Positions 40,954 to 64,000 of a stretch of DNA of 64,000 bases are shown in pieces (the first letter of the stretch is position 1; every line of letters starts with the position of its first letter). This DNA comes from an uncultured Gemmatimonadaceae bacterium (GTDB lineage: Bacteria; Gemmatimonadota; Gemmatimonadetes; Gemmatimonadales; Gemmatimonadaceae). The notes beneath the pieces were generated by a model, which was not told the DNA's origin, did no database searches, and saw nothing but the letters and a program-made list of their open reading frames with translations. The position numbers and the translations under genes were made by a program. The stretch lies in NCBI GenBank assembly GCA_963822945.1, contig CAWGJO010000033.1:42344-106343 (forward strand), given 5' to 3'.

Positions 40954-40968
40954 GCGCCGTCCCCCGGG

Positions 40969-44500: not shown

Positions 44501-44688
44501 GGTATCATCGCTCGTTTCCGCGCGGTACCGCGCCGTTTGTAGTTCCCCCGGCATGCTCCGTCTCATCCGTCCCATCCGAATCATCAGGTCCAGATGTTCC
44601 GTTCCTGATGCCCGCTCTGGCGCGCCCCATGCACCGCGGCCAATTTCACCGGGTCTCCCGTCCCGGTCCCCCGATTTCGAGGCTCGTC

Positions 44689-47600
44689 ATGAAGCGCCTT
44701 GTCCATCTGCTCTCTGCCGCCGCTGCGCTGATCTCGTTCTCCCTCACCGCCCCCGCTGCGCTGGCGCAGGGCGAACTGCACGGGCTCAAGCCCGGGCGCG
44801 ATCCGAACCAGCCCATCGACTCGGCGTACACGGCGAAGATCCGCGAGTACACCACCGAGCCCTTCTTCTCGTCGCCCCTGGTGAACTACCTGCCGGCGTC
44901 GAAGACCGTGCCCACCCCGATGGCCGAACTCGGCGACATCGCCGGGGCCAGGGACAACCTGCCGTACTCGTCGCAGGTGTACGCGTACATGCGCATGCTC
45001 GCCAAGGCGAGTCCGCGCGTGCGCGTCTGGACCATCGGTCACACCGAAGAGGGGCGCGAGATGATCGCCGTCGGCGTGGCGTCCGAAGCCGTGTGGAAGA
45101 ACCTCGACCGGAACAAGGCCAACCTCGCCAAACTCGCCGACCCGCGCACCATCGGCATGAACGACGCCGTGGCCGAGAAGCTCATCCCGCAGACGGTGCC
45201 CGTGTACTACATCACCGGCACCATCCACTCCCCCGAGTCCGGCGCGCCCACGGCGCTCATGGAACTTGCCTACCGCCTGGCCGTCGACAACAGTCCCTAC
45301 ATCAAGAACATCCGTGACCACCTGATCACGTTGATCACGCCGATCGTCGAGGTCGACGGGCGCGACCGCGAGGTGGACATCGTGCGCTGGCACATGGCGC
45401 ACCCCAAGGAGACGCCGCTCCCCCTCATCTACTGGGGGCACTACGTGGCGCACGACAACAACCGCGACGCCATGGGGGCCACGCTCGATCTCACCCAGAA
45501 CGTGCTCAACACCTACGTGGGCTGGAACGCCCAGGTGCTGCACGACCTGCACGAGTCGGTGCCCTTCCTCTACGACAACACCATCGGCGACGGCCCCTAC
45601 AACGCCTGGATCGATCCGCTGCTCGCCAACGAGTGGCAGATGATCGGCTGGAACAACGTGCAGGAGATGACGCGGTTTGGGATGCCGGGCGTGTTCGCCC
45701 ACGGCGACTTCGACACCTGGTCGCCCGGCTACCTGATGTTCATCGCCGCCATGCACAACGGCATCAGCCGGTTGTACGAGACGTTCGGCAATGGGGGCAC
45801 CGCCGAGACGGTCGAGCGCACGCTGTCGCCGAGCGAGACGGAGAAGACCTGGTACCGGCAGGACCCGCCGCTGCCGCACGTGAAGTGGTCACTTCGCGAC
45901 AACAACAACTATGAGGAGACGGGGCTGTTGGTCTCGCTCCAGTACTTCGCCAACAACCGGCAGCTCTTCCTCGAGAATTTCTACACCAAGGCCAAGCGCT
46001 CCATCGCCAAGGCCACCACCGAGGGGCCGGCCGCGTACGTGCTGCCGGGCGACGATCCGCGCCTGCAGTCGCAGGCCGATCTGTTGCAGGTGATGCGGCG
46101 GCAGCACGTGGAGATCTCGCGCGCCACGGCGCCGTTCACGGTGCAGGTGCCGGTGAAGAAGCCCGCCAACGGCAACGGACGCGGGGCGCGCGGCGGGCGC
46201 GGTGCCAACGCGCCGGCGCGGGTCGGCGGCGGATACGGCGGTGCAGCCCAAGCCGCCGGCTACCGAGGCGCGCACCTTCCCGGCCGGCAGCTACATCATC
46301 CGCATGGACCAGCCGTACTCGCGCATCGCCGACGCGCTGCTCGACTACCAGTTCTGGTCGCCCGACGATCCGCAGAAGCACCCCTATGACGATACCGGCT
46401 GGACCTTCCCCGAAGGATTCGGCGTGGAGTGCGTGCGCGTGGTCGATACGACGGTGCTCAAGGCGCCGATGGAGAGGGTGACGGGCGACATCGTCGCGCC
46501 GGGCGGTGTGCACGGCACGGGGGCGACCTATGCCATCAACAACGTGGGCGAGAACTCGCTCGTCACGCTGCGCTACCAACTCAAATCGGCGGACTTCCAG
46601 GCCGCTGAGGATTCGTTCAGCGCGGCGGGGCACCATTTCAACCGCGGCTCCTTCCTCGTGAGCAACGTGTCGTCCGGCGATCTCGACAAGGCGTCGAAGG
46701 CGCTCGGCATCGAGGTGTATGCGCTGGCGTCGGCGCCGAGCGTGACCACGCATCCGGCGCGCGCGCCGCGAGTGGCGATTCTTCACACCTGGCAGGGCAC
46801 GCAGACCGAGGGATGGTGGCGGCTTGGCTTCGATGCCCAGCACGTGCCGTACGACTACATCAGCACGCAGGACGTGGCCAGGGACGCCAACCTGAATGCG
46901 AAGTACGACGTGATCGTATTCCCGCCGGCCGGTGCCAGCGGACAGTCGATCATCGAGGGGATGCCCATGTGGCGGAACCCGATGCCGTGGGAGAAGAGTG
47001 AACTCACGCCCAACCTCGGCCGCATCGCCAGCACTCCCGACATCCGGCCGGGCCTGGGTTGGGACGGTCTGCAGCACCTGCAGGACTTCGTGGCCAGGGG
47101 TGGGCTGCTGATCACCTCGGTGAACACGGCCGACTTCGCGATCAACTACGGGCTCACCAACGGCGTGAGCATGAACCGGCCGCGCGGGCAGGAGGTGGTG
47201 GGCAGCCTGCTGCGCACGCGGCTGGTGGACGGCGCGAGCCCGATTACGTACGGCATCGAGGACAGCCTGACCGTGTACAGCGACGGGGGCGAGACCTTCA
47301 ACGTGAGCAACACGCGCGGCGGACGCTTCGGCGGACGCTTCGGCGGCGGGGGCGCCACGCGCGAGACGGGACGCGGGACGGCGGACGATCACGACGTGGT
47401 GCAGGGGCGGCCGGCGCTGACGCCGCAGTTCGAGCGTCCCGTGCCGCCGAAGGTGGAGCCGTGGCAGGCGCAGCCGATCAGCGACGAGCAGCTGCGCAAT
47501 CCGCTGAACATCATTCCGCCCGACCAGCGGCCGCGCGTGGTGCTGCGCTACACCGATCGCAGCGATCTGCTCGTGTCGGGCCTGCTGAACGGGGGCAACG

Positions 47601-47773
47601 ACATCGCGCAGCGGGCGGTGGTGGTGGACGACCCCGTGGGGAAGGGGCACGTGGTGATGTTCGCCAACAATCCGGTGTATCGGGGCGAGACCATCGGCAG
47701 CTACGCGCTGGTGTTCAATGCCCTGATGAACTGGGACAACCTGAACGCGGGGCGGGTGCTGGACCAGCGGTAG
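44689..47773 (+). CDS. Secreted M14 zinc carboxypeptidase family protein (frameshift near 46220)
   Basis: Signal peptide, IGHTEEGR, IHSPE, HDNNRD, HDLHE, PYDDTGWT, C-terminal GATase-like region. Confidence 0.88.
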
Positions 47774-47785
47774 AAGCGTCAGCGG

Positions 47786-47819
47786 GTGGGGCGGCGGCCC
47801 GATGGGGCCGCCGTCCCAC
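47786..47819 (+). terminator. GC-rich hairpin after the M14 gene
   Basis: GTGGGGCGGCGGCCC-GATG-GGGCCGCCGTCCCAC. Confidence 0.55.
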
Positions 47820-47844
47820 GGCGTTGCCGAATCCCGGCCGGAAT

Positions 47845-47881
47845 GATTATGGTTTGACTAGTCTGACCATAATCGACTAGT
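47845..47881. promoter_or_regulatory. Palindromic operator of the vapBC operon
   Basis: GATTATGGTTTGACTAGTCTGACCATAATC (26/30 self-complementary) plus a second GACTAGT, just before the antitoxin ATG. Confidence 0.7.
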
Positions 47882-47888
47882 TTGCGGC

Positions 47889-48164
47889 ATGCGTGACACC
47901 TACTCCCTGTACGAGGCCAAGGCGCACCTGTCGGCCATCGTGCGGCGCGTGCGCGAGGGGCACACGGTGGTGGTGACCGTGCACGGCGAGCCGGCCGTCG
48001 AGATCCGGCCCCTCGCCGCCGAGTCGAAAGATCTGAGTGCCCGACTGACGGCGCTCGCCGAACGGGGCATCCTCGTGGAGCCCGCGGAACCGCGGGCGGC
48101 CCTCAGACCGGGGACGCCGAAGCGTGGCGCGCTCAAGCGCTTCCTGGCCGATCGCGACGGATGA
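47889..48164 (+). CDS. vapB: Phd/YefM family antitoxin
   Basis: SLYEAKAHLSAIVRRVREGHTVVVTVHGEPA. Confidence 0.9.
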   Translation: MRDTYSLYEAKAHLSAIVRRVREGHTVVVTVHGEPAVEIRPLAAESKDLSARLTALAERGILVEPAEPRAALRPGTPKRGALKRFLADRDG

Positions 48165-48544
48165 GAGTCGCCTATGTCGATACGTCGTGCCTCGTGGCGC
48201 TCGAGTTCGGTGAACGGGGCGCGGCGGCGCTGGCGCGGCGGCTTGGCCGCTTCGATCGCCTGGTCGCGGCCAATCTGTTGGAGGCCGAACTGCGGGCGGC
48301 CTGCGTCCGAGAGGGGCGTGACGGACCGACTGACGCGCTGCGGTCGATATCATGGGTCGTTCCCGACCGACCCCTCTCGCCGGAGATCGGCCGCGTGCTC
48401 GACGCGGGGTACGTGCGCGGCGCCGATTGCTGGCACCTGGCGACGGCGCTGTATGTGGCCGGAGACGCCGCGGCAATTTCGTTCGTGACGCTGGACGAGG
48501 CGCAGGGCCGGGTCGCTCGCGCGCTTGGGTTCGCCCCAGGTTGA
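48161..48544 (+). CDS. vapC: PIN-domain toxin
   Basis: YVDTS, EAE, RGADCWHLATA, FVTLD; ATGA overlap with the antitoxin. Confidence 0.88.
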   Translation: MRVAYVDTSCLVALEFGERGAAALARRLGRFDRLVAANLLEAELRAACVREGRDGPTDALRSISWVVPDRPLSPEIGRVLDAGYVRGADCWHLATALYVAGDAAAISFVTLDEAQGRVARALGFAPG

Positions 48545-48734
48545 AATTCGCAACTATAGAGTGCTCCTTGCCCCGGGGGGCTATGTGGCCCATGTTGAGT
48601 CCACTCGGCGCGCCCCCTTTGCCCGCCTGACCGGCCGGCTCAAGCCAGCCCGATTTCTCGCCTCCTGATCGGACGCGCACGTCGCGTCCGATTTCCGTAT
48701 TCCGTGAGCCCGCCGACTCCATGAGGAGCCCGCC

Positions 48735-51461
48735 TTGAGCGACGTCGCAACAGGCCTTGGTCGCGCGCTATCCGACCGCTACCGCATCGAGCGCGAACTC
48801 GGCGCGGGCGGCATGGCCACCGTGTACCTCGCCGAGGACCTGAAGCACGACCGCCGGGTGGCGCTGAAAGTCCTGCGTCCGGAGCTGGCCGCCGTGATCG
48901 GCGCGGATCGGTTCCTGAGCGAGATCAAGACGACGGCCAATCTGCAGCACCCGCACATCCTCGCCCTGTTCGACTCCGGCGAGGCGGGCGGGTTCGTCTA
49001 CTACGTGATGCCGTACGTGGAGGGCGAGTCGCTGCGCGACCGGCTGGATCGCGAGAAGCAACTGCCCGTGGACGATGCCGTGCGCATCGCGAGCGAAGTG
49101 GCCGACGCGCTCGAGTACGCGCACGGGCACGGCATCATTCACCGCGACATCAAGCCGGAGAACGTGCTGCTGCACGGCGGGCATGCGCTGGTGGCCGACT
49201 TCGGCATTGCGCTGGCCGTGAGCCGCAGCGACGGCGCCACGCGGATGACCGAGACCGGGATGTCGCTGGGCACGCCCACGTACATGAGTCCCGAGCAGGC
49301 GATGGGCGAGCGGGAGATCACGGCGCGCAGCGACGTGTACGCGCTCGGCGCGATGCTGTACGAGATGCTGGTGGGCGATCCGCCGTTCACGGGGAGCACG
49401 GCGCAGGCGATCGTCGCCAAGGTGCTGACCGCGGCGCCGGCGTCGATCACGGAGCAGCGGCACACCGTTCCTCCGCATGTGGAGGCGGTGGTGCTGCGCG
49501 CGTTGGAGAAGCTGCCGGCCGACCGGTTCGCGAGCGCGGCGCAGTTCTCGGCGGCGCTGGCGGACGCGTCCGGCGGTGCGTCCGGGACATCAGGCACACG
49601 GCGCATGCCGTACATGAAGTCGCAGGGGGGACTCGGCCTGCCCACGGTGGCGGCGCTGGTGCTCGCCGCGCTCGTTGTCGGCGCGGCGGGGGTCGCGCTC
49701 ATGCGCCGTGGTCATGCCACGGCTACGTCCACCACGCGAGTGATGCTCGAGTTCCCGACCAACGAGCAACCGCAGCATGGGACCGTGCCGGCGCCGTTGC
49801 TCGCGCTCCGCCCCGACGGCAGCGGGTTGGTCTATTCCGGCATCGGCACCAACGGGCAGCCGCAGCTCTGGATGCGGCGGTGGGATCGGCTGGGAGCCAC
49901 GCGGTTCTCGCAGACACTGGGCGGCGCCTGCTGCTCGGTGTTCTCGCCCAGTGGCGATTCGGTGGCATACCTGGCGCCGCCACACACACTGCAGGTGCTC
50001 CCGCTGACCGGTGGATTCCCCGCAACGGCGGCGGACTCGGGGCTCACCCCGGTGTCCGACCTCGGCGGCGGTGTGGACTGGGGGTCGGACGGCATGCTCT
50101 ATGTGACCGGACCGAAGGGGCTGCTCCGGGTCTCGCCCCGTGGCGGCATCCCCGACGTGGTGGCCCCCCTGGACGCGCAGCGCGGTGACCTCCGGTATAT
50201 GTGGCCGGCCGTGCTTCCAGGCGCGCGGGGTGCGCTGGTTTCGGTCGTTCCAGCGTCAAATCCCACCAGCCAGGACGCCGTGGCAATTGGCGCCGTCGAT
50301 TTCCGCACGGGAAAGGTGTCGCTGATTCTGCAGGGGACCCGGGCCATCTACGCCCCAACCGGCGACGTGATCTTTTCCAAGGCCAACGGTGTGCTCTGGG
50401 CCGTCCCATTCGACGAGAAGTCGCTGACCACCACCGGGCCGGCCCGTGAACTGGCGGACACGCTGGCCAGCGGGGCACAAAGGATCGGGGACCTCTCGCT
50501 TTCGCCAGACGGCACGCTTGCCTACGTGAAGGGCGTCGTCCAGTCGTACGGGTTGGTGTGGGTGAACCGGAACGGCGACGTGACGCCGGTGGCCAGCGAC
50601 TTGGTGGACGACGCTATCGACAGCCCGGCGCTTTCCCCGGACGGCAAGCGGATCGTCGTCGCCATGGCCGGTCCCGATGGCAGGTTCAGCCTCTGGATGA
50701 AGACGCTGGACGGAAGCCCCAAGGTGCGCGTCACCTTCGACGGAACGTCCAACTGGCGCGCCGCCTGGCGGCCTGGGACGAATCAGGTCGCGTATCTCTC
50801 CGATCGGGCCAAGCTCGGCGCGACGAGCCTGCGGTTGTTCCTGCTCAACCTCACGGGGCAGGCGGGCATCACCCAGCCGGATCTGCACGACGCGCGCACC
50901 ATCGGCGGCGCATCCTGGTCGCCCGACGGCAAGTGGCTGGTGTTCCGCACGGACAACCAGGAGCCCGGCAACGGTGACATTCTGGCCATCCGCCCCGGCG
51001 TCGATACCGTGCCGCGCACGCTGGTGGCCACGCCGGCCGAAGAACTGCGGCCGGAGATATCGCCCGACGGCCGGTGGATGGCGTACAGCTCCGACGTGTC
51101 GGGCCGGCGCGAGATCTACGTGCGCTCCTTTCCCGACGCCGCGGGCACGCCGTACCAGGTGTCCACGACGGGTGGAACGAATCCGATGTGGAATCCGACC
51201 GGCAAGGAACTGTTCTATATCGATGCCGCGAACAACATGGTGTCGGTGCCGGTGATTCCCGGCGCCGCGTTCCAGGTGGGGCAGCCGCAGGTGTTGTTCG
51301 CCGCCGGTGGGTTCTTCCTCAACGCGTTCTCGCAGGAATGGGCGGTGGCACCCAACGGGCAGCGCTTTCTCATGATCCAGGGCACCCAGGGCGACGCCGT
51401 GCACGTGGTGGTGGTGTTCCACTTCCTCGACGAGCTGAAGCGCCGGATGGCCGGCCAATGA
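48735..51461 (+). CDS. Ser/Thr protein kinase-TM-PD40/TolB-like propeller, copy 1 (intact)
   Basis: GAGGMATVY, VALK, HRDIKPEN, DFG, YMSPEQ; TM helix; repeated SPDG motifs; TTG start with GGAG RBS. Confidence 0.93.
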   Translation: MSDVATGLGRALSDRYRIERELGAGGMATVYLAEDLKHDRRVALKVLRPELAAVIGADRFLSEIKTTANLQHPHILALFDSGEAGGFVYYVMPYVEGESLRDRLDREKQLPVDDAVRIASEVADALEYAHGHGIIHRDIKPENVLLHGGHALVADFGIALAVSRSDGATRMTETGMSLGTPTYMSPEQAMGEREITARSDVYALGAMLYEMLVGDPPFTGSTAQAIVAKVLTAAPASITEQRHTVPPHVEAVVLRALEKLPADRFASAAQFSAALADASGGASGTSGTRRMPYMKSQGGLGLPTVAALVLAALVVGAAGVALMRRGHATATSTTRVMLEFPTNEQPQHGTVPAPLLALRPDGSGLVYSGIGTNGQPQLWMRRWDRLGATRFSQTLGGACCSVFSPSGDSVAYLAPPHTLQVLPLTGGFPATAADSGLTPVSDLGGGVDWGSDGMLYVTGPKGLLRVSPRGGIPDVVAPLDAQRGDLRYMWPAVLPGARGALVSVVPASNPTSQDAVAIGAVDFRTGKVSLILQGTRAIYAPTGDVIFSKANGVLWAVPFDEKSLTTTGPARELADTLASGAQRIGDLSLSPDGTLAYVKGVVQSYGLVWVNRNGDVTPVASDLVDDAIDSPALSPDGKRIVVAMAGPDGRFSLWMKTLDGSPKVRVTFDGTSNWRAAWRPGTNQVAYLSDRAKLGATSLRLFLLNLTGQAGITQPDLHDARTIGGASWSPDGKWLVFRTDNQEPGNGDILAIRPGVDTVPRTLVATPAEELRPEISPDGRWMAYSSDVSGRREIYVRSFPDAAGTPYQVSTTGGTNPMWNPTGKELFYIDAANNMVSVPVIPGAAFQVGQPQVLFAAGGFFLNAFSQEWAVAPNGQRFLMIQGTQGDAVHVVVVFHFLDELKRRMAGQ

Positions 51462-54145
51462 CCGCGGCTCCCGACCGTCTCGCCACGGCGCTCGCCGACC
51501 GCTACCGCATCGAGCGCGAACTGGGGCAGGGCGGGATGGCCACCGTGTATCTGGCCGAGGATCTGAAGCACGACCGCAAGGTGGCGCTGAAGGTCCTGCG
51601 TCCGGAGCTCGCCGCCGTCATCGGCGCCGAGCGGTTCCTGAGCGAGATCAAGACCACCGCCAACCTCCAGCACCCGCACATCCTGCCGCTGTTCGATTCC
51701 GGCGAGGCGGGCGGGTTCCTGTTCTACGTGATGCCGTACGTGGAAGGCGAAACGGTGCGCGACCGGTTGAATCGCGAGAAGCAACTTCCGATCGCCGACG
51801 CGGTGCGCATCACCACCGAAGTGGCGAGCGCGCTGGACTACGCGCACCGGCACGGCGTGATCCACCGCGACATCAAGCCGGAGAACATCCTGCTGCACGA
51901 CGGGAGCGCGCTGGTGGCCGACTTCGGCATCGCGCTGGCCGTGAGCACCGCCGGCACGCGGATGACCGAGACCGGGATGAGCCTCGGCACGCCGCACTAC
52001 ATGAGTCCCGAGCAGGCGATGGGAGAGCGCGAGATCACGGCGCGCTCCGACGTGTACGCGCTGGGGTGCGTGTTGTACGAGATGCTCACCGGCGACCCGC
52101 CGTTCACGGGGAGCACGGCGCAGGCCATCGTGGCGCGCGTGGTGACGGAAACACCGCGTCCGCTCACGCTGCAGCGGCACACGATTCCGCCGCACGTCGA
52201 AGCGGCGGTGTTGACGGCGCTGGAGAAGCTGCCAGCCGACCGGTATGCGAGCGCCGCCGAATTTGCCGAAGCGCTGGCCCGGCCCGAGTTGATGGCGGCG
52301 ACCACTGCCGGCCGCGCGGCAGCGCGGCCGGCGGCGCGCGCATCCCGTCCCCTGCTCATCGGCTTGGTCGCCGCACTCGTGCTGACGGCCGGCGCCGCGG
52401 CGTGGGGATGGCTCGCGTATCGCCGGTCCGTCAACCAGCCGGCGTCGTGGCAGTACGTCACACTCGGCGACAGCGCGCGCGTGAATTCGGCGATCAACGC
52501 GCAGATCCTCGCCCTGTCGCCCGACGGGAATACGCTCGCGTTTCGCAACGAGGCCGCGGGAGGCGCGCTCTGGATCAAGCGGCGCGGGCAGCTCGATCCG
52601 GTGCCCCTGCCGGGCACGGACAATGCGTGGAACCCGGTGTTCTCCCCCGACGGCAAGTCGATCGCGTTCATCGCCGACCAGAAGCTGAAGCGCGTCGATC
52701 TGGCCGGCGGAGCGCCGGTGACGCTGGCCGATACCGCGGCGGGCGGCTACGGAGGCGTCGCGTGGATGGATGATGGGACGTTGATCTATTCCATGCCGTC
52801 GCAGGTGGATCTACGACGCGTCTCGGCGTCTGGCGGCGCGATCTCGGAAGTGCTCCATGACGACTCGAAGAGTGGCGGCGGCATCGGCTTTCCCGTGGCG
52901 CTTCCGCACTCGCGGGGCGTGCTCTTCCAGTACTGCGGTTCCGGATGCGTCACGATCGGCATCCGCGTACTCGATCTGAAGACCGGGCAACAGAAGACGT
53001 TGCTCGACAACGTCGTGTCGGCCTGGTATCTCCCCCTCGGCTTCCTGCTCTACATCCGACCTGACGGCACCGCGCTCGCGGCGCCGTTCGACCTCAAGAC
53101 GCTCACCATCACCGGCGCCGCCGTACCCGTGCTGGACCACGTGTTGGTGCAGGTCTCCAACGGCGTGGTGCCGTTTGCGTGGTCGGCGTCGGGTTCCGCG
53201 GTCTATCTTCCCGGCAGCGGCGTGGCGAGCCTCATGCGCGTCGTCCGCGTGACGCGGGACGGCGTTGCCACCCCGCTCGATACGTCGTGGGTGGGACACG
53301 TCAACTCGATGGCCGAATCGCCCGACGGCCGCCGGCTGGCCGTGGGGGACGGCGATCCGACCAGCCTCAACATCTGGATCAAGCAACTCGACGGCGGGCC
53401 GTACTCGCGGCTGAGCTTCGGCAATCAAGACCGTCGCCCCGTGTGGTCACCGGACGGCAGCGCGATCGCGTTCATCCGCGATACGGGGGCCACCGGGGGC
53501 GTGTTCGAGCGGCCGGCGAACGGCACCGGGGGCGACCGCCTGGTCGCCCGCCTGGGCGTGCGGGTGCAGGAGGTGTTCTGGACGCACGACGGCAAGTGGC
53601 TGGTGTTGCGCACCGACAACGCCGGCCCGGGCGCCGGCGACCTGATCGGCGTGCGGACCAGCGGCGATACGACGCCGGTGCCGCTGGTGGCGAGCCGGTT
53701 TTCCGAGATGGAGCCGGCCGTGTCGCCCGACAGTCGCTGGATCGCCTACACGTCCAACGAGTCGGGGGTGCCGGAGATCTACGTGCGCCCGTTCCCGAAC
53801 ACCACCGATGGCAGGTGGCAGGTGTCGTTGAACGGCGGCGATAGTCCCGTATGGTCGCCCGACGGGCGCTCCCTGTACTATCGGCGCGGCGATGCCCGGT
53901 TGGTGGAAGCCCGGCTCGAGGGCGGAACGACGTTCGGCGTCGCGTCGCGGCAGCCGCTGTTCGACGCGACGAACTACGCCGCGAGCGGTTTCCACCAGTC
54001 ATTCGTGGTCGAGCCGGGTGGCAAGACGTTCCTGTTCGCGGTCAGCGCGCAGGCCGGGGCCGGGGCCGGGTCCAGGGACGCCTCGGCGAAACTGGTCTGG
54101 GTGGACCACTGGTTCACCGACCTCAAACAGCGACTCAACCGGTAG
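51458..54145 (+). CDS. Ser/Thr protein kinase-TM-PD40 propeller, copy 2 (intact)
   Basis: Same motifs; ATGA overlap with copy 1. Confidence 0.93.
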   Translation: MTAAPDRLATALADRYRIERELGQGGMATVYLAEDLKHDRKVALKVLRPELAAVIGAERFLSEIKTTANLQHPHILPLFDSGEAGGFLFYVMPYVEGETVRDRLNREKQLPIADAVRITTEVASALDYAHRHGVIHRDIKPENILLHDGSALVADFGIALAVSTAGTRMTETGMSLGTPHYMSPEQAMGEREITARSDVYALGCVLYEMLTGDPPFTGSTAQAIVARVVTETPRPLTLQRHTIPPHVEAAVLTALEKLPADRYASAAEFAEALARPELMAATTAGRAAARPAARASRPLLIGLVAALVLTAGAAAWGWLAYRRSVNQPASWQYVTLGDSARVNSAINAQILALSPDGNTLAFRNEAAGGALWIKRRGQLDPVPLPGTDNAWNPVFSPDGKSIAFIADQKLKRVDLAGGAPVTLADTAAGGYGGVAWMDDGTLIYSMPSQVDLRRVSASGGAISEVLHDDSKSGGGIGFPVALPHSRGVLFQYCGSGCVTIGIRVLDLKTGQQKTLLDNVVSAWYLPLGFLLYIRPDGTALAAPFDLKTLTITGAAVPVLDHVLVQVSNGVVPFAWSASGSAVYLPGSGVASLMRVVRVTRDGVATPLDTSWVGHVNSMAESPDGRRLAVGDGDPTSLNIWIKQLDGGPYSRLSFGNQDRRPVWSPDGSAIAFIRDTGATGGVFERPANGTGGDRLVARLGVRVQEVFWTHDGKWLVLRTDNAGPGAGDLIGVRTSGDTTPVPLVASRFSEMEPAVSPDSRWIAYTSNESGVPEIYVRPFPNTTDGRWQVSLNGGDSPVWSPDGRSLYYRRGDARLVEARLEGGTTFGVASRQPLFDATNYAASGFHQSFVVEPGGKTFLFAVSAQAGAGAGSRDASAKLVWVDHWFTDLKQRLNR

Positions 54146-54153
54146 CCGATCCG

Positions 54154-56851
54154 ATGACCAACCCCCCGGAACGTCTCGCCGCCGCCCTGGCCGGCCGCTA
54201 CCGCATCGAGCGCGAACTCGGCGCCGGCGGCATGGCCACCGTGTATCTGGCCGAGGATCTGAAGCACGATCGGAAGGTGGCGCTCAAGGTGCTGAAGCCG
54301 GAGCTGGCCGCCGTGATCGGCGGCGAGCGGTTCGTCGTCGAGATCAAGACCACGGCGGCGCTGCAGTCACCCGCACATCCTGCCGCTGTTCGACTCGGGC
54401 ACCGTGGACGGCTTCCTGTACTACGTGATGCCGTACATCGAGGGCGAGACGCTCCGCGACAAGTTGAATCGCGAGACGCAGCTCGGCATCGACGAAGCGG
54501 TGCGCATCACGAGCGAGGTGGCCGACGCGCTGGACTATGCGCACCGGCACGGCGTGATCCACCGCGACATCAAGCCCGAGAACATCCTGCTGCACGACGG
54601 GCGGCCGATGGTGGCCGACTTCGGCATCGCGCTGGCGCTGAGCGCGGCGGCGGGCGGGCGCATGACCGAAACCGGCATGTCGCTCGGCACGCCGCACTAC
54701 ATGAGCCCCGAGCAGGCGACGGCGGACAAGGACATCTCCAACCGCTCCGACATCTACTCGCTGGGCAGCGTGCTGTACGAGATGCTCACCGGCGAGCCGC
54801 CGCACATGGGGAACTCGGCGCAGCAGATCATCATGAAGATCGTGACCGAGGAGGCCGCGCCGGTCACCAAGCTGCGCAAGAGTGTGCCGGCGAACGTGGC
54901 CGCGGCGGTGGCCAAGGCGGTGGAGAAGCTCCCGGCCGATCGGTTCGAGACGGCGAAAGCATTTGCCGACGCGCTCAACAATCCGGCGTTCGCGACGCAG
55001 GCGATCACCGCGGGGTCGTTCGCCGGCGTGCGGACCGGGCGGCCGCGTGTCGATGCTCGCCGTCCGGTGCCGCCGCCGCGGTCGTGGCGCTGGCGGCCGG
55101 TTGGGCAATCGGCCGCCGCGGCGGCGATCCCGGCAGCGTCGGTCCGACCGAGGTCGTGCACGCCACGCTCGGGCTCGCGGACAGTGTCACGGTTCCGGCG
55201 ATCGCGACCATGCGCCTGGCGATCTCGCCGTCGGGACGGCGCATCGCCTTCGTGGGCCAGAAGGACGGCGTCGTCCAACTCTGGGTGCGCGAACTGGCGA
55301 CGCCGCGGCGCATCCACTGCCGGATACCGAGGGGCCGCTCGATCCCTTCTTCTCCCCGGACGGAGAGTCGATCGGGTTCTACACCGGCACCGGTTCATCG
55401 AAGCGCACGCTCAAGGCCGTGAGCTTCGGCGGAGGCGCGGTCCGGACGATCGTCGCCGACTCGCGTGCCGTTCTACGGCGGTGGTTCATGGGGCGACGAC
55501 GGGCAGATCTACTTCACGTACGGCGCCGGCCTCGCCTCGGTCGCGGCGGCCGGCGGCCCGGTGACGGTGATCGCCCGACCGGACTCGGTGACCGGCGGCT
55601 CCGAATTCGACTTTCCCGAAGTGCTGCCAGGGAGCCAGCAACGTGCTCGTGATGGTCTGGCGGGGGTCGGCCGGCGCGGCCCACATCGCCGCCATCGACG
55701 TGGCCAGCGGGCACTTCACCGACCTGACGGCCGGGCACGATCGCCCGCTACGTGGCGCCGGGATTCCTGGCCATCGGGACTGCCGGACGGCCGCGTCATT
55801 GTCGCGCGCTTCGACGCGGCATCGGCTCGCCTCACGAGCGCGCCCGCTGCCGATGGTGCAGGACGTGCAGGCAGAGAGCACCAACGGCACCGTGCAGTTC
55901 GCGGTGTCGTCGACCGGGCATGGTGGTGTACGAGCGCCGGCCGGCGGCGGCGGGGGACTCGTCTGGGTGGACCGGACCGGCCCGATGACCGCCCGTGGAC
56001 ACCAGCCCGCACGGCGGGTACAAGGATCCCGTGCTGTCGCCGGACGGTACGCAGATCGCCGTGGCGCGGGAGGATGCCGGCGCGACGCAAGTCTGGGTGA
56101 AGCAGCTGCCGACCGGGGCGTTCAGCCGGCTCACGTCGGATCCGGGCAACGCCGACCGCCCCGACTGGTCGCCGGACGGGCGGCGCGTGGCGTACATGGC
56201 GACGGTGAACGGGGGGCGCACGCGCGTTCATCCGCCGCGCCGACGGGACCGACAGCGAGGAACCCGTGCTGGCAGCCGTGCCCAAGTTGGATGAGGTCGC
56301 CTTGGATCCGGTCGGCCGGTACATGGTGTTCCGCACCGAGGGTGTCGGGCAGGGCAGTCGCCATCTGCTCGTCGCGGAGCCCGGCAAGGACAGCGTGCCG
56401 CGGACGCTCATCGAGTCGCGATTCGACCACTATCGCCTGCGGCTTTCGCCCGACGGCCGCTGGCTCGCCTACGTATCCGAGGAATCCGGCAACGCCGAGG
56501 TCTACGTCCGGCCCTTCCCCAACGTCGACTCGGCGCGCATCGCGATCTCGGTGGGTGGCGGTATCGAGCCGGTCTGGAGCCGCAACGGCACCGAGCTGTT
56601 CTTCCGCGGCCAGCGCGGCGAGATGTTCGCCACTCCCGTCACCATGGGGGCCCGCTTCACGCATGGGGCGCCGAAGTTGTTGTTCACGCTTCCTGCGCTG
56701 GTGCAGGATCTGTACCATCGCGCCTACGACGTGACACCGGACGGCAAGCGGTTCCTGATGGTGCCGTCCGGCGGGCGACAACGCGGCCGACCTGAACGTG
56801 GTCTTCAACTGGCGCGTGGAGGTCGAGCGGGTAACGGAGAAGGGGAAGTGA
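54154..56851 (+). CDS. Ser/Thr protein kinase-TM-PD40 propeller, copy 3 (roughly ten frameshifts; pseudogene or consensus error)
   Basis: Kinase and propeller segments scattered over all three frames; ends LNVVFNWRVEVERVTEKGK*. Confidence 0.85.
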
Positions 56852-56994
56852 CGGAAGCGCTCGCGCGCCTGGCCGCGGCGTTGGCCGATCGCTACCGCTC
56901 TGCGCACTCGCATTCGATGTAAAATATGGGTGAGGGAAATGACGGAAGCGCTCGCGCGCCTGGCCGCGGCGTTGGCCGATCGCTACCGCTCTGC
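56843..56994 (+). repeat. 61-bp direct duplication of a kinase gene start
   Basis: 56843-56903 versus 56934-56994, one mismatch (GTG/ATG). Confidence 0.9.
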
Positions 56995-57351
56995 AGCACC
57001 CGCACATCCTCGCGCTGTTCGATTCGGGCGAGGTCGATGGTACGGTGTTCTACGTCGTGCCGTACGTGGAAGGCGAGCCGCTGCGCGACCGGCTGGCGCG
57101 GGAGAAGCAGCTGCCCGTGACCGACGCGGTGCGCATTGTCGGCGAGGTGGCCAGCGCGCTCGACTACGCCCCCCGCCACGGCGTGATCCACCGCGACATC
57201 AAGCCGGAGAACATCCTGCTGCACGACGGGCAGGCGCTGGTGGCCGACTTCGGCATCGCGCTGGCGGTGAGCCGCTCGGACTGCGGCACGCGCATGACCG
57301 AGACCTGCATGAGCCTCGGGCACGCCGCACTACATGAGTCCCGAGCAGGCG
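56848..57351 (+). pseudogene. Ser/Thr kinase remnant, copy 4
   Basis: Jumps from ADRYR directly to LQHPHIL (G-loop and VALK lost); keeps HRDIKPEN and DFG; similarity ends after YMSPEQA. Confidence 0.85.
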
Positions 57352-57452
57352 CTCTGGCGCTTCCGGCCGGACAGCACTCGAAGGCCGAAGCAGTGAACCG
57401 CGAACCCGCGGCTGATGGAATGTGTGCAACCCCACCCCCCAACCGGAGAACC

Positions 57453-58003
57453 ATGATGCACAAGCTCAGCAAAGCGGCGTTGGCAATTCTGACCATGGCG
57501 GCGGCTGCGGCCCTGCCTGGTTCCCTGTCGGCCCAGCACCCCGCGGGCATTCGAGGGGAAGTTCTGGAGCAGTTCAACGAGGCCGCCAACAAGCTGGTCC
57601 AGCTCGCCGAGGCGATTCCCCAGGCCAAGTACACCTGGCGTCCGATGGACGGCGTGCGCTCCGTGAGCGAGGTGCTGCTCCACGTGGCGGGGAGCGACGA
57701 GTACCAACTGGCGGCCGTCGGGGTGAAGGCGCCGTCGGGGGGGAGAACGACCTGGAGCACTCCACCACCGACAAGGCGCAGATCATCGCCCGGTTGAAGC
57801 AGTCGAACGATCGTGTGCGCGCCGCGATCCTGGCGATGTCGGACGCCGATCTGGAGAAAGCCACCAAGCAGTTCGGCATGGACATGACGTATCGCGGCGC
57901 GATCCTCCTGCTGGAGACGCACGCCCACGAGCACCTGGGGCAGATGATCGCCTACGCCCGGACGAACGGCGTCGTGCCGCCGTGGAGCCTCCCGGCGAAG
58001 TGA
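57453..58003 (+). CDS. Secreted DinB family protein (frameshift in the G-run near 57740)
   Basis: Signal peptide, WRPMDGVRSVSEVLLH, HAHEHLGQMIAYAR..VVPPWS. Confidence 0.82.
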
Positions 58004-58048
58004 GCAGGCGGAGCGCATTGCGTGTGAGTCTCTCTCCTGAGGTGTCCG

Positions 58049-58573
58049 ATGACGGAACTTCGACGGCGTAGTCTCATGCGTTGGGTGCACCGGGTGCAGG
58101 CGGGGGCGGCGGGAGGCCTCGTCGCCGGCGGTGTGGTGGCGGCCTTCTTCTTCCTGGTCGGCGCGATCGACCTGCATCCGCTTGCCGTCCCCGCGTCACT
58201 CGCGTCCGGATTGTTCGGTGGAGGGGGCGCCGCCCCGGGCGTTGCGAGTCCCCCTGAATCGTTCGTCGTCCTCGCCGTCGAGATGCTCGCCTACACGGCC
58301 ATCCACCTGCTGGCGTTCACCGGGGTCGGGGCGAGCGCGGGCATGGCAGTGAAAGCCTCGACGTTCTGGCGGACCCTGCTGAGCAGCACGCTCTACGTGA
58401 CCGTGGCCTGCACCGGCCTGCTCTACCTGGCCGGCTGGTTCGTCGCCACGCCGGTGGCCGTGGACGTACTGGGCCTTCCCCGCGTGCTGCTCGCGAACGC
58501 GGTAGCGGGCACGGTCATCGGGACGGCGCTCTACCTGCAGGAACAGAGCGACGCCCGCGAGATGACGGTCTGA
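58049..58573 (+). CDS. Four-TM membrane hypothetical protein
   Basis: GAGGTG RBS; hydrophobic helices; YTAIH motif. Confidence 0.7.
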   Translation: MTELRRRSLMRWVHRVQAGAAGGLVAGGVVAAFFFLVGAIDLHPLAVPASLASGLFGGGGAAPGVASPPESFVVLAVEMLAYTAIHLLAFTGVGASAGMAVKASTFWRTLLSSTLYVTVACTGLLYLAGWFVATPVAVDVLGLPRVLLANAVAGTVIGTALYLQEQSDAREMTV

Positions 58574-58615
58574 ACGCGTTCTGGCGATCGATCTCTCCAG
58601 GGGACATGTTCTGAT

Positions 58616-61323
58616 ATGGCAGACGACGTCGCCCGCCTCACCGCCGCCCTGGCCGACCGTTACCGCCTCGAGCGTGAGCTGGGGCAGGGCGGCATGGCCA
58701 CCGTCTATCTGGCCGAGGACCTGAAGCACGATCGCAAGGTCGCGATCAAGGTCCTCAAGCCCGAACTGGCCGCCGTGCTCGGCGCCGAGCGGTTCGTGAC
58801 CGAGATCAAGACGACGGCGGCGCTGCAGCATCCCAACATCCTGCCGCTGTTCGATTCGGGCGAAGCGGGCGGGTTCCTGTTCTACGTGATGCCGTACGTA
58901 GAAGGGGAAACGCTGCGCGCCAAGCTCGACCGCGAGACACAGCTTGGCGTGGACGAGAGTGTGAAGCTGGTGAGCGAGGTGGCTGACGCCCTACAGTACG
59001 CGCACGAGCACGGCGTGGTGCACCGCGACATCAAGCCGGAGAACATCCTGCTGCACGGCGGCCGGCCGATGGTGGCGGACTTCGGGATCGCCCTCGCGGT
59101 GAGTGCCGCCGCGGGCGGGCGGATGACCGAGACGGGATTGAGTCTCGGCACGCCGCACTACATGAGCCCCGAGCAGGCGACGGCCGAGAAGAACATCACA
59201 GCGCGCAGCGACGTGTACTCGCTGGCGAGTGTGCTGTACGAGATGCTCGCCGGGCAGCCGCCGCATCTGGGCGGCTCGGCGCAGCAGATCATCATGAAGA
59301 TCGTGACCGAGCCGGTGGAGCCGGTCACCCGCTATCGGAAATCGGTGCCGCCCAACGTCGCGGCAGCGCTCGCCCGGGCGCTGGAGAAGCTCCCGGCCGA
59401 CCGGTTCGAGAGCGCGAAGGCGTTCGCCGATGCGCTGGGCAATGCGTCGTTCACCACGGTTCACGCGGCGGCTGCCGGTGGCGGCACCGCAACACTCGCG
59501 GGCGGGAATCGCTGGCTGGCCGGAGCACTGGGCGCGGCGTTGCTCGCGGCCGGTGTCGGGATCGGCGCCCTGCTCAACCGGCACCAGTCGCCGACGCCCC
59601 ATGTGGTGCGCTTTACCGTTGCCCCGGGACCGGGACAGCAGCTCTTCACCAATCACCTGGTCGCGGAGACCTTCGCCCTGTCACCCGACGGGACCCGCCT
59701 CGCCTATGTGGCGACCGATTCCGGTGCCTCGTTGCCGACGCTGCACGTCCGTTCGCTCGACCAGTTCCGCTCGACGTCCTTCCCCGGCACGGAAGGTGCC
59801 GTCAGCGTGTTCTGGTCTCCCGATGGGCTCTGGATCGGCGTCGTGACCGTCAACCGGACGATCCTCAAGGTGTCGGCCGGTGGCGGGCCGGTCAGTCAGA
59901 TCGCGTCGGATGTCGACCGGGACGACGGACCGCCGTCGTGGGGGGACGATCACTTCATTGCGTACACCGATAACAATGTCCCGATGCGGGTGAGCGACGG
60001 TGGCGGTGCGGCAACGCCGCTGGTCGACACGACGAAGGCGAACGTCCAGGGCATTGCCCCCGTACTGCTTCCCGGCAGCCATGCCATGCTGCTCTCCGTC
60101 TGCCACGGCCGCATGTTCAGGGATGCGACCGGGATCTGGGGGTGCTGGATCTCGCCACGGGCAAGTTCAAGGTGCTCGTGGCAGGCGCCAATCGCGGCTG
60201 GTACCTGCCGGAGGGACTCCTGGCGTACGGCACCAAGGAAGGGGCGCTGTTCGCGGTCAAGTTCAACCTGAAATCCCTCACGGTCACGAGTGCGCCGGTG
60301 GGGGTGCTCGACGGCCTCAAGACCGGATCACGGTTCGCGCTTGCCGAGGTGGCCATCTCGGCGTCGGGTACCGCGGCGTATCTCCCGGTCGGGGCCCAGC
60401 CCGGCGGCGTCATCGTGCAGCGGGACCGGACCGGTCGTGAAGAGACGATCGTTGGCAAACCGGGGTCGTACAACGACCCTCGACTTTCCCCCGACGGCCG
60501 GCGCGTGCTGTTCTACGGCCCGGACGCCAAGGGCGTGAACCAGCTCTGGATCTACGACCGGGCGTCACTCACCACGCGACAGCTCACCTTCGACGGGGTG
60601 AGCATCCGTCCCACGTGGTCCCCCGACGGCAACCGGGTGGCGTTCTCCGGAGAACGCGGCTCGGTGTGGCATACCATGTGGATGCCCGCGGACGGCTCGC
60701 GGCCGGCGGCGCGGGTGAGCAAGGGGCGGGATGTGGTCGGCACCTCGGCGGTGTCGTGGACTCGCGATGGCAAGTGGATCGTGGTGGACGGCCCGCCAAG
60801 CGACGGGAAAGGGGCCGGCGGCGAAGACGTATTCGCCATCCCCACCACGGACACGTCGCACGCCATGCGCCCGGCGGTGGCCTCCCCGGCAAATGAGCAG
60901 CTTGGCGAGGTGTCGCCCGACGGCAAGTGGATCGCGTTCAACTCCGATGATGCCGGCCAGTACCAGGTCTACATTCAGCCGTTCCTCGCGCCGGGAGGGC
61001 GCACGTTGATCTCTACCGGGAACGCGGAGGAACCCGCCTGGCTGTCGAACAATGAGCTCGTGTACCTCAATCGGGAGACCGACAGCCTGACGCTCGCCCA
61101 CCTGACGTTCGGGCGCACCATCGAGGTGACGCGAACGCCGCTGTTCAGTTTCCAGAACTACCAGAGCGGAACCGTTTCGGAACGGGCGTACGACGTCTCG
61201 CGCGATGGCAAGGACTTCATCCTGGTCAAGCCGCTGGCCGGCCGCGAGGCGGTCGCGCCGGTCGTCGTGCTGAACTGGACCACCGAGGTGAAACGCCTGA
61301 TGGCGGCGGCGGGGGTCAAGTGA
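58616..61323 (+). CDS. Ser/Thr protein kinase-TM-PD40 propeller, copy 5 (frameshift near 60120)
   Basis: ORFs 58616-60271 and 60142-61323 join; ends VVVLNWTTEVKRLM. Confidence 0.9.
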
Positions 61324-63933
61324 CCGAAGCGTCGAGCGCTGCCGGCCGCCTCACCGCCGCCCTGGCCGATCGCTACCGCATCGAGCGCGAGCTCGGGCCG
61401 GGCGGGATGGCCACGGTCTATCTCGCCCAGGACCTCAAGCACGACCGCAAGGTCGCGATCAAGGTCCTCAAGCCGGAACTGGCCGCCGTGCTCGGCGCCG
61501 AGCGATTCGTGACGAGATCAAGACGACGGCCGCGCTCTCGCATCCCCACATCCTGCCGCTGTTCGACTCCGGCGAGGCGGACGGGTTCCTGTACTACGTG
61601 ATGCCGTACGTCGAGGGGGAGACGCTGCGCGACAAGCTCGACCGCGAGACGCAGCTCGGCGTGGACGAGGCGGTGAAGCTCTCCAGCGAGATCGCCGACG
61701 CGCTGCAGTACGCGCACGGGCACGGCGTGATCCACCGCGACATCAAGCCCGAGAACATCCTGCTGCACGACGGGCGGCCGATGGTGGTGGACTTCGGCAT
61801 CGCGCTCGCGGTGAGTGCCGCGGCGGGCGGCCGGATGACGGAGACGGGGCTGAGTCTGGGCACGCCGCACTACATGAGCCCCGAGCAGGCGACGGCGGAG
61901 AAGGACGATCACGGCCCGCACCGACATCTACAGGCTCGGCGCGGTGCTGTATGAGATGCTCACCGGCGAGCCGCCGCACACGGGGAATCTGCGCAGCAGA
62001 TCATCATGAAGATCGTGACCGAGGAGGTGGCGCCGGTCACCGAATTCGAAAGACGGTGCCAGGGAACGTCGCGGCCGCGGTGGGCAAGGCGCTGGAGAAG
62101 CTGCCTGCCGATCGGTTCGACTAGGCGAAGGCGTTCGCGGATGCGCTCGCGGACCCGCACTTTGCCGCCGGCGGCGCCGGTATGGACGGTGCGTCGATGC
62201 TGAGCGACGTCCGTGGCGTCCGGTGGGTGGTTCGGAATCCGTGGTGGTGGGCGACGGTCGCGGCCGCCGCGGCCGTGGTGGCGCTGACGGCCGTGCTCGC
62301 ACGACGCTCGGAGCCTGCCTCGCCACCGTGGTTCACAGCCCGGACCTTCGACGCCCGCTCGATCTTCAACGCGCGCTTCATGCCCGACGGGCAGACGATC
62401 GTGTTCAGCGGCCTGCCCGACGTGGGCACCGTGTCGCGCGTGTACGTCATCCGGCCCGACCACCCGGATCCCGTCCCCTTCGGGCCGGACTCCACGCACC
62501 TGCTCAATGTCTCCAGCACCGGCCAGCTCGCCGTCCTCACGCACGCGAGCTACCGCGGCAACCATCGGCTGTTCTCGGGCACGCTGGCGACGTTCTCCCT
62601 CGGCGGCGAGGCGCCGCACGAGGTGACGACCGGCGTGCGCGAGGCCGACTGGAGCCCGGACGGCAAGAGCATGGCCGTGATCCGCGACAGCGCCGGCACC
62701 GACCTGCTCGAGTACCCGGTGGGGACGGTCCTCGTCCGTTCCCAGGGCTACCTCTCCGATCCCAGGATCTCGCCCTCGGGAGACGCCGTCGCGTACCTCC
62801 GGCACCCCGCCAGGTTCGACGATCGCGGCTCGGCCGTCATCGTCGATCGCACGGGCCGCACGCTGGCACGGTCGGGCGACTTCCAGGGAGTCGAGGGGGT
62901 CGCGTGGCGGCCGGACGGGAAGCGCGTCCTGTATTCGTCCGCCGGGGGAGGAGGTACCGGGGTAGCCACCTTCGCGGTGCGCGAGCTCGACCGGTCCGGA
63001 CGGGACGGCTGGGCCCTCTCCGGTCCCGGCGGCCTGACGGTCCAGGATGTCTCCCGGCAAGGTCGTGTCCTGCTGACCGACGATCGCCAGATGATGGGTG
63101 TCGTCGGGCGGGGACCGGGCGACACGGACGAGACGGACATGGGCGTGCGCAATTGGTCGCAGAGGCCGGTGCTCAGCGGGGACGGCCGCTACCTGGCGTA
63201 CAGCGATGCGGGCGCGATGGGCGGTACCGACTACTCCTTGCTGTGGCGGAAGACGGATAGTTCTGCGCTGGTCCGCCTCGGCGCGGGGACTCCGATGGCC
63301 GTGGCCCCCGGCGACGGCCTCGTCCTGGCGGGCCTGCCCACGAGTCCGGCAAAGCTCATGCTCTATCCCACCGGTCCGGGCACGGCGCAGCGGCTCGATT
63401 CCGGCCAGTTCCAGACGTTGAACCTCAACGCGGCCGATGTGGGAGTGGCGGGGAGCGACACCATCGTCTTCTTCTGCGCAACAGAGCCGCGGCAGTCCGA
63501 GCGCTGCTACGTCGACTCGCTGTCCCACGGGTCCCCGATCGCGGTGACACCACCCGGAACGTCTCAGGCGATGCTCTCGCCGGACGGCCGGACGGTGCTG
63601 GCCCGGGTCGGGGACAGCGTGGCGATCTACCCGCTGGCGGGAGGCTCGCCTCGACCTGCGCGCGGAGTCCGTCCGGGAGATGTCCTGATCCGGTGGAGCC
63701 CGGAGGGACGCGAAGTCTGGGTATGGACGAATCCGAACTCGGCCTCGAGCCTGCGCTTCGATCGCGTCGATCCCCTCACTGGCGTGCGCGCGCCGCTCCT
63801 GAGCGTGGTGCCCCGTGAGCTGGCTGGAGTGCGCGGCTTCGAACGGCCGACGCTGGCGGATGATCCCCACGTGTACGCCTACAACGAGTTCCTCTACACA
63901 TCGCTGCTCTACACCGTGGACAGTCTGCGATGA
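61320..63933 (+). CDS. Ser/Thr protein kinase-TM-propeller, copy 6 (several frameshifts and a TAG in the kinase part)
   Basis: GTGA overlap; kinase motifs in several frames; intact 583-codon TM-propeller ORF 62182-63933. Confidence 0.85.
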
Positions 63934-64000
63934 CGGATGTCGGTCGCCTGGCGGCCGCCCTCGCCGACCGCTACCGCATCGAGCGCGAGCTCGGGGCGGG
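63930..64000 (+). CDS. Ser/Thr protein kinase, copy 7 (3'-partial)
   Basis: ATGA overlap; MTDVGRLAAALADRYRIERELGA matches the other copies. Confidence 0.85.
   Translation, partial: MTDVGRLAAALADRYRIERELGA

What the first reader, a model, noticed from the sequence alone, without database searches (positions are those of the whole stretch)
48735..64000. Tandem array of at least 7 receptor-like Ser/Thr kinases: constant kinase, variable propeller
Seen: seven consecutive starts (48735, 51458, 54154, 56848, 58616, 61320, 63930) share an L.RY motif (mostly RL..ALADRYRIERELG.GGMATVY). Four junctions are ATGA/GTGA stop-start overlaps and one is an 8-bp gap. The ~280-aa kinase parts are nearly identical over long DNA stretches. 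Past the TM helix the ~550-aa PD40/TolB-like propellers share little beyond SPDG blade motifs and, in most copies, a terminal motif like VVxNW. Known: Hanks-type kinase-PD40 fusions are expanded in Gemmatimonadota/Acidobacteriota; I know of no characterised ligand or substrate. Inference: a co-translated repertoire of diversified sensors feeding one conserved phospho-output, comparable to plant receptor-kinase clusters. The kinase block could also act as the recombination substrate for expanding and swapping sensors. The array runs off the window.
Basis: partly seen in the sequence, partly recalled or inferred. Interest (0 to 1): 0.82.

Follow-up and report, generated by a model that had tools for sequence, protein, structure and literature searches.

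The report
Receptor kinase array shuffled by recombination
A Gemmatimonadota bacterium carries a row of predicted membrane receptor kinases with old, distinct outer sensors, and related species show sensors deleted, inserted and swapped with breakpoints in or just after the shared kinase DNA, so the set of sensors changes between lineages while the signalling half stays alike; what the sensors bind is unknown.

Summary
Real, but overstated. The seven starts and junctions are as described. Only two copies are intact; three are frameshifted (likely consensus errors), one is a sensor-less relic followed by two unrelated genes, and one is cut by the contig end. Kinase DNA is 74-85% identical, not near-identical. 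The sensor is a predicted nested double beta-propeller, TolB-like. Relatives support the recombination idea: array content differs at the same locus, chimeric kinases switch parent at nt ~126, ~200, ~845 and ~910, and kinase and sensor trees conflict (19 of 30 supported splits, against 5 of 29 between the two propellers). Sensors are under purifying selection (dN/dS at most 0.4), so the repertoire is old and reshuffled, not hypermutating. Arrays occur across Gemmatimonadota, up to 25 kinase genes in 91 kb. Ligand, substrate and co-translation are untested, and reads were not checked. It works like the S. aureus lpl cluster joined to a PknD-type receptor. This scan has reported the same kind of array several times in other genomes; I found no paper describing it in eight searches.

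The parts
47889..48544 (+). Phd/YefM-type antitoxin (47889-48164) and PIN-domain toxin (48161-48544), a VapBC-type pair just upstream of the array
   Evidence: PIN PF01850 E 3e-9; the matching antitoxin in G001 hits PF02604; sequence
48735..51461 (+). Copy 1, intact, 908 aa: Hanks-type kinase (16-265), one TM helix (~305-323), nested double beta-propeller (sensor type S1)
   Evidence: S1 orthologues 81-99% DNA identity in six relatives
51458..54145 (+). Copy 2, intact, 895 aa, sensor type S5
   Evidence: the G012 copy has this kinase with the G006 sensor allele, switch at nt ~845
54154..56851 (+). Copy 3, full length but frameshifted, sensor type S2
   Evidence: 13 private non-triplet indels, none shared with three orthologues; intact orthologue in G009
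56848..57350 (+). Relic: duplicated kinase start, internal deletion, ends after the activation loop, no TM or sensor
   Evidence: absent from G006, where the S2 stop is followed by DinB
57453..58003 (+). DinB-family gene with one frameshift, inside the array
   Evidence: PF12867 in two frames; same position in G006
58049..58573 (+). 174-aa hydrophobic ORF of no known family, inside the array
   Evidence: no Pfam, PADLOC or NCBIfam hit
58616..61323 (+). Copy 5, kinase-TM-double propeller with one frameshift
   Evidence: no same-sensor partner among the genes catalogued
61320..63933 (+). Copy 6, frameshifted kinase with a more distant PD40 propeller type lacking the terminal NW motif
   Evidence: best intact-catalogue hit only E about 1e-4
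63930..64000 (+). Start of copy 7, cut by the contig end

Best explanation
This is a tandem array of predicted single-pass receptor Ser/Thr kinases whose sensor content differs between related genomes, with chimeric genes that switch parent in or just after the kinase DNA, likely through ordinary homologous recombination between kinase copies. Each gene encodes a Hanks-type kinase, one TM helix and a predicted nested double six-bladed beta-propeller; the conserved VVxNW tail is predicted to be the strand that closes the first propeller. Inferred: the propellers face the periplasm and bind a protein or peptide ligand on their variable loop faces; binding would pair the kinases, which would autophosphorylate activation-loop threonines and phosphorylate substrates encoded elsewhere, with a PP2C phosphatase resetting them. 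The sensors are old paralogues each kept by purifying selection, so diversity between lineages comes from deletion, insertion, conversion and allele exchange of whole sensors. Odds by step: kinase-mediated reshuffling about 0.85; active receptor kinases about 0.8; largely shared output about 0.5; peptide or protein-fragment ligand tied to scavenging about 0.35.
For: Architecture: catalytic motifs in 83-85 of 85 intact genes, a TM helix in 76 of 85; model pLDDT 92.6, pTM 0.89; residues 277-562 match TolB-type propellers (Z 27.8, rmsd 2.6, 258 aligned) and 11-579 match the PknD sensor (Z 21.8, rmsd 2.9, 241 aligned). Recombination: the G001 S2 gene follows copy 2 up to nt ~201 and copy 3 after (24:9 then 14:134 informative sites, 0 of 2000 permutations), and G001 lacks the S5 unit; G000 C23:5414 has a 5' 126 nt of another kinase type (0 of 2000); the G009 S8 gene carries its neighbour's kinase, switch at ~910, with a 457-nt exact run; the G012 S5 gene is G000 kinase plus G006 sensor, kinase dS 0.024 against sensor dS 0.186; G011 starts at the same left flank with an S4 sensor on a kinase of the other subtype; two G010 paralogues have kinase dS 0.04 and sensor dS 1.26. 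Trees of 75 intact genes: 19 of 30 supported kinase splits conflict with propeller 1 and 18 of 30 with propeller 2, against 5 of 29 between propellers; distance correlation 0.33-0.37 against 0.71. Selection: sensor dN/dS at most 0.40 in all 36 same-sensor pairs. Loops on the presumed binding face are least conserved among 57 paralogues (0.15 against 0.38) but 0.78 among 10 close S1 orthologues. A PP2C gene lies inside the G001 array (E 1.6e-6) and in two distant arrays.
Against: No reads were laid, so the relic and the order of copies 5-7 are not independently confirmed, and exact kinase runs in G009 and G010 could be consensus artefacts. The window's own kinases show no recent homogenisation. 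Kinase and sensor distances still correlate (0 of 300 permutations), and S1 shows similar dS in both halves, so shuffling is occasional, not free. Of 10 triplets tested, one was not significant (274 of 2000) and two were weak (21 and 44 of 2000); the triplets were chosen after viewing the profiles. No FHA or ECF gene of G000 lies in the array contigs' kinase runs, so no substrate is identified. The peptide link is strong only in this genus; in distant arrays it is 4 of 55 genes against 4 of 132 background (p 0.24). Face assignment was made by hand from the secondary structure, and the opposite face holds the repeat's SPDG motif.
Confidence: 0.65

Rival explanations
1. Old tandem duplications with strong purifying selection on the kinase and plain gene loss; recombination plays little part.
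For: Window kinases are 74-85% identical with short exact runs; kinase dN/dS is mostly 0.02-0.15; the nearest kinase is usually the same-sensor orthologue where one exists.
Against: Plain loss cannot give chimeras with internal switch points, kinase dS 0.04 beside sensor dS 1.26, or one sensor on two kinase subtypes. It explains why kinases stay alike, not the reshuffling.
Confidence: 0.12
2. The array is a threat-sensing repertoire (phage, predator, competitor or envelope damage) that signals to defence or dormancy, with VapBC modules as effectors or stabilisers.
For: Variable content between species and allele exchange; PIN genes in 4 of 55 interspersed genes against 0 of 132 background (p 0.007); VapBC pair upstream here; kinase domain hits PADLOC PD-T4-6 models.
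Against: Sensors show no positive selection; PADLOC hits cover only the generic kinase domain and the MAD6 and PglW cut-offs are not reached; the background scan used a stricter E-value (1e-10 against 1e-6), which would have missed a PIN as weak as the window's own; toxin-antitoxin pairs gather in any unstable region (recalled).
Confidence: 0.18
3. The broken part of this array (copy 3 to copy 7) is a decaying or misassembled stretch, so the functional repertoire in this strain is smaller than it looks.
For: Copy 3 has 13 private indels; copy 6 has frameshifts and an in-frame stop; the relic is missing in G006 and its kinase piece is closer to a G011 copy (88%) than to own-genome copies (83-84%); the stretch lies at a contig end.
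Against: The indels are mostly single-base insertions (11 of 13) and private, and orthologues in other assemblies carry private ones too (4 and 1), as expected of consensus errors; S2 is intact in G009; copies 1-3 are collinear in G006. This rival concerns the strain, not the array type.
Confidence: 0.25
4. A site-specific, integron- or shufflon-like system moves the sensors as cassettes.
For: Co-oriented units (172 of 178 copies), variable order, interspersed toxin-antitoxin pairs.
Against: Switch points are spread over nt ~126, ~200, ~845 and ~910; codon conservation is raised along the whole kinase with no local peak; no recombinase among the genes scanned in or beside arrays.
Confidence: 0.05

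Closest known systems
Mycobacterium tuberculosis PknD (PDB 1rwi; described in PMC2877116, passages read)
   Same: Hanks kinase, TM helix and extracytoplasmic six-bladed propeller sensor; structural match Z 21.8
   Different: PknD has one symmetric propeller and is a single gene; here two nested propellers, one TolB-like, in arrays of up to 25 kinase genes
Staphylococcus aureus lpl tandem paralogue cluster (PMC2568036; abstract and section 19 read)
   Same: Tandem paralogues rearranged by homologous recombination in a conserved part of each ORF; incongruent domain trees; deletions, conversions and translocations
   Different: lpl genes are lipoproteins with a central conserved block compared within one species; here the block is an 800-bp 5' kinase, the variable part is a receptor domain, and exchange is seen between species
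Polymorphic toxin loci (PMC3482391; passages read)
   Same: Constant 5' part recombined with variable 3' parts
   Different: There one full gene is fed by silent cassettes with immunity genes; here most units are whole genes and the variable part is a predicted sensor
Ser/Thr kinase expansion of Solibacter usitatus Ellin6076 (PMC3174227; passages read)
   Same: Many kinase paralogues without positive selection in a soil bacterium
   Different: The passages read mention no propeller sensors, kinase arrays or domain exchange
TolB and tricorn-type propellers (PD40; PDB 2ojh, 1c5k)
   Same: Second propeller matches at Z 26-28; Atlas neighbours carry PD40 and Tricorn_N
   Different: No TolB N-terminal domain or protease domain; NCBIfam TolB score 73 against cut-off 343

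Membership tests
Hanks-type bacterial Ser/Thr kinase | Gly loop, VAxK lysine, helix-C glutamate, HRD, DFG | tested here: met
   79, 83, 85, 84 and 84 of 85 intact genes; Pkinase E 4e-49 for copy 1
Hanks-type bacterial Ser/Thr kinase | Measured autophosphorylation or substrate phosphorylation | not testable with these tools
   needs purified protein
PknD-type receptor kinase | Kinase, single TM helix, propeller beyond it | tested here: met
   TM in 76 of 85 by hydropathy; fold; side of membrane inferred
PknD-type receptor kinase | One symmetric six-bladed sensor propeller | tested here: not met
   Two nested propellers
PknB/Stk1 (PASTA) kinases | PASTA repeats; NF033483 cut-off | tested here: not met
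   No PASTA hit; 319-330 bits against cut-off 450
lpl-type recombining paralogue cluster | Tandem co-oriented paralogues with a conserved block | tested here: met
lpl-type recombining paralogue cluster | Incongruent trees and breakpoints at the conserved block | tested here: met
lpl-type recombining paralogue cluster | Conserved unit spanning the 3' part of one ORF and the 5' part of the next | tested here: inconclusive
   Seen in single cases (copy 2 tail plus copy 3 kinase in G009; C23 start in G009); not tested across all genes
Anti-phage kinases (PD-T4-6, MAD6, PglW) | Whole-protein match and system partners | tested here: not met
   Only the kinase domain matches PADLOC models; MAD6 181 against 460 and PglW 84 against 990
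ECF sigma factor-linked kinases | Adjacent ECF sigma factor as substrate | tested here: not met
   The six strongest PF07638 loci of G000 sit beside other kinases of 31-46% identity, none beside the array
Integron or shufflon | Site-specific recombinase and a fixed recombination site | tested here: inconclusive
   Breakpoints scattered and no recombinase among scanned genes; no dedicated integrase search was run

The most novel reading that the evidence does not exclude
Gemmatimonadota keep a phylum-wide, horizontally traded library of extracellular pattern receptors that plug into an interchangeable kinase, so that recombination at one locus rewires what a lineage detects (neighbours, predators, phage or prey proteins) without changing the response: a bacterial counterpart of plant receptor-kinase clusters.
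Probability: 0.2. Interest if true: 0.8.

Novelty: new variant of a known kind. Interest (0 to 1): 0.5.

Why it matters
Gemmatimonadota are common and poorly understood, and a sizeable block of their signalling genes sits in these arrays. The locus shows how a bacterium can change its input repertoire by recombination in a conserved signalling domain, and it gives ready-made natural chimeras for testing whether kinase and sensor are interchangeable. Both ingredients are known separately (PknD-type receptors; lpl-type shuffling), and the ligand is unknown, which limits the score.

Tried and rejected
Sequencing runs: no RNA holder listed, best DNA holder 0.23 of the words; no reads were laid, so expression, frameshifts and the relic stay unchecked. 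Promoter scan of 47700-58600: 0 sigma-70-like sites and 2 terminator-like sites, both at chance level. Positive selection on sensors: rejected, dN/dS at most 0.40 in 36 pairs (Nei-Gojobori, whole domain; single sites not tested). Whole-genome homogenisation of kinases: not seen, kinases do not group by genome. A local DNA signal in the kinase front end: none stood out. Peptidase enrichment outside this genus: not significant, 4 of 55 against 4 of 132 (p 0.24), lenient 6 of 55 against 5 of 132 (p 0.085); 2 kinase ORFs were dropped from 57, and 132 of 167 background ORFs were scanned. Direct overlap joining C33, C23 and C13: none found. Foldseek gave only generic tandem propellers. Literature: eight searches found no description of these arrays; PMC7159879 (0 mentions of Gemmatimonad) and PMC10581226 (no protein-kinase passage) were checked by term search only; supplements were not read and most subscription papers are not held. 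No complex prediction was run.

Full report
Setting. The window is the end of contig C33 of G000. Of 71 titled loci related to copy 1, 70 are Gemmatimonadota and one is Vicinamibacteria; the closest (83%) is titled Gemmatimonadaceae.

Observation. The seven starts, four 4-bp overlaps and one 8-bp gap are in the sequence. Copies 1 and 2 are intact. Copies 3, 5 and 6 are full length but frameshifted. The unit at 56848 is a relic with a duplicated start, about 52 missing codons and no sensor, followed by a DinB gene and a 174-aa ORF. Copy 7 is cut by the contig end. The five full kinases share 74-85% DNA identity, 62-75% at third positions, and exact runs of at most 69 nt, so 'nearly identical' is too strong. 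Copy 3 has 13 private non-triplet indels, 11 of them insertions, against 4, 1 and 0 in three orthologues, none shared. I infer consensus errors, but reads were not checked.

Extent. G000 has 16 kinase hits of this subfamily plus the cut start: six on C33, five on C23, two on C13, two on C44, one on C19. C23 and the start of C13 are collinear with one G012 contig, and G001, G010 and G011 carry the window's left flank and C23/C13-type genes on single contigs. The locus therefore likely holds about 14 starts in G000 (inferred; no overlap joins the contigs). G029 has 25 kinase genes in 91 kb. Among the 71 titled loci, 43 have two or more copies, as do 18 of 27 loci of at least 15 kb, and 172 of 178 copies are co-oriented. 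A minority of array genes carry TPR domains instead of propellers, some without a TM helix.

Protein. Catalytic motifs are present in 83-85 of 85 intact genes and a TM helix in 76. The sensor of copy 1 folds with pLDDT 92.6. Residues 277-562 form a TolB-like propeller (Z 27.8, rmsd 2.6), and a second propeller spans 11-579 around it (PknD, Z 21.8, rmsd 2.9). The strand at 566-571 therefore closes the first propeller, which would explain the conserved tail. Across 75 intact propeller genes, paralogues average 72% in the kinase and 26-27% in the propellers; same-sensor pairs average 95%, 85% and 83%. Loops on the presumed ligand face are the least conserved among 57 paralogues (0.15 against 0.38) yet 0.78 among 10 close orthologues (faces assigned by hand).

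Reshuffling. Sensor DNA clusters into orthologous types across genomes. The window runs S1, S5, S2; G006 the same and then a different gene; G001 S1, S2; G009 S1, another, S8, S2; G010 S1 and then unrelated types; G011 begins with S4 at the same left flank. Of 10 triplets tested, six had 0 of 2000 permutations as extreme (two of them on the same gene), one had 2, two were weak (21, 44) and one was not significant (274). Clear cases: the G001 S2 gene switches from copy-2-like to copy-3-like at nt ~201, the expected scar of deleting S5 by a crossover inside the kinase; G000 C23:5414 has a foreign first 126 nt; G009's S8 gene has its neighbour's kinase up to ~910; G011's S4 gene has the other kinase subtype up to ~841; G012's S5 gene is G000-like to ~845 and G006-like after, which points to allele exchange between species. 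Synonymous divergence agrees: 0.024 against 0.186 for that pair, and 0.04 against 1.26 for two G010 paralogues. Kinase trees conflict with sensor trees in 19 and 18 of 30 supported splits, while the two propellers conflict in 5 of 29. Against free shuffling: kinase and sensor distances still correlate (rho 0.33-0.37), and S1 has similar dS in both halves. A block of two peptidase genes lies before S6 in G000 and after the last nearby kinase in G012, a translocation of the kind the lpl model predicts (PMC2568036, section 19).

Selection. Sensor dN/dS is at most 0.40 in all 36 same-sensor pairs and kinase dN/dS mostly 0.02-0.15. The repertoire is a set of old, individually conserved sensors dealt in different combinations, not a hypermutating one.

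Function. In this genus the genes between and beside kinases are M1, M3, S9, S41 and M14 peptidases, a POT peptide transporter, an amino-acid permease, DinB and VapBC pairs, which suggests sensing tied to protein scavenging. These genomes share one locus and are not independent. In distant arrays the link is not significant (4 of 55 against 4 of 132), while PIN genes are enriched (4 of 55 against 0 of 132, p 0.007, with a stricter threshold on the background). No substrate is evident: FHA and ECF genes of G000 lie elsewhere, the ECFs beside a different kinase subfamily; G000's PP2C genes also lie elsewhere, though PP2C genes sit inside three other arrays. Activation by pairing and activation-loop phosphorylation is recalled from PknB and PknD, not tested.

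Comparison and verdict. It works like a PknD-type receptor (PMC2877116, passages) arranged and rearranged like the S. aureus lpl cluster (PMC2568036, abstract and section 19), and it is a member of neither: two nested propellers, no PASTA, below all NCBIfam cut-offs. Eight literature searches found no description; Solibacter's kinase expansion is noted without arrays in the passages read (PMC3174227). This scan has already reported such arrays in other Gemmatimonadota and Acidobacteriota genomes; one of those notes gave me the lpl lead, which I then read. New variant of a known kind; interest 0.5.

Noticed in passing
window 56902-56940: An AT-rich insert with a possible ribosome-binding site lies between the two duplicated starts of the relic; it matched nothing else in the genome or the fetched loci.
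   Followed up: partly
window 44608-47773: Large M14 zinc carboxypeptidase split by one frameshift; it marks the left flank of the array in G001, G006, G009, G010, G011 and G012.
   Followed up: partly
window 58049-58573: 174-aa hydrophobic ORF with no family hit, present here but not at this position in G006.
   Followed up: partly
L033:9588-12434 and L033:14031-15962 (G029): Inside the G029 array lie a winged-helix-TPR protein and a stand-alone PD40 propeller protein; P0092 joins the same propeller type to a BTAD domain, so these sensors also pair with other outputs.
   Followed up: no
L062 (G000 C13) and L041 (G001 C12): The S3 kinase gene lies on opposite sides of an ABC-transporter block in G000 and G001, another translocation at the locus edge.
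   Followed up: partly
L097, L138, L149: DUF2911 genes recur between kinase copies in three distant arrays.
   Followed up: no
window 38263-41313: PadR-like gene beside a MacB/FtsX-type permease; similar permeases recur in the background regions and in the G029 array.
   Followed up: no
window 49929-49934 (copy 1 sensor C75-C76): Two adjacent cysteines are kept in S1-like sensors but not in paralogues, a possible periplasmic disulfide or redox site.
   Followed up: no
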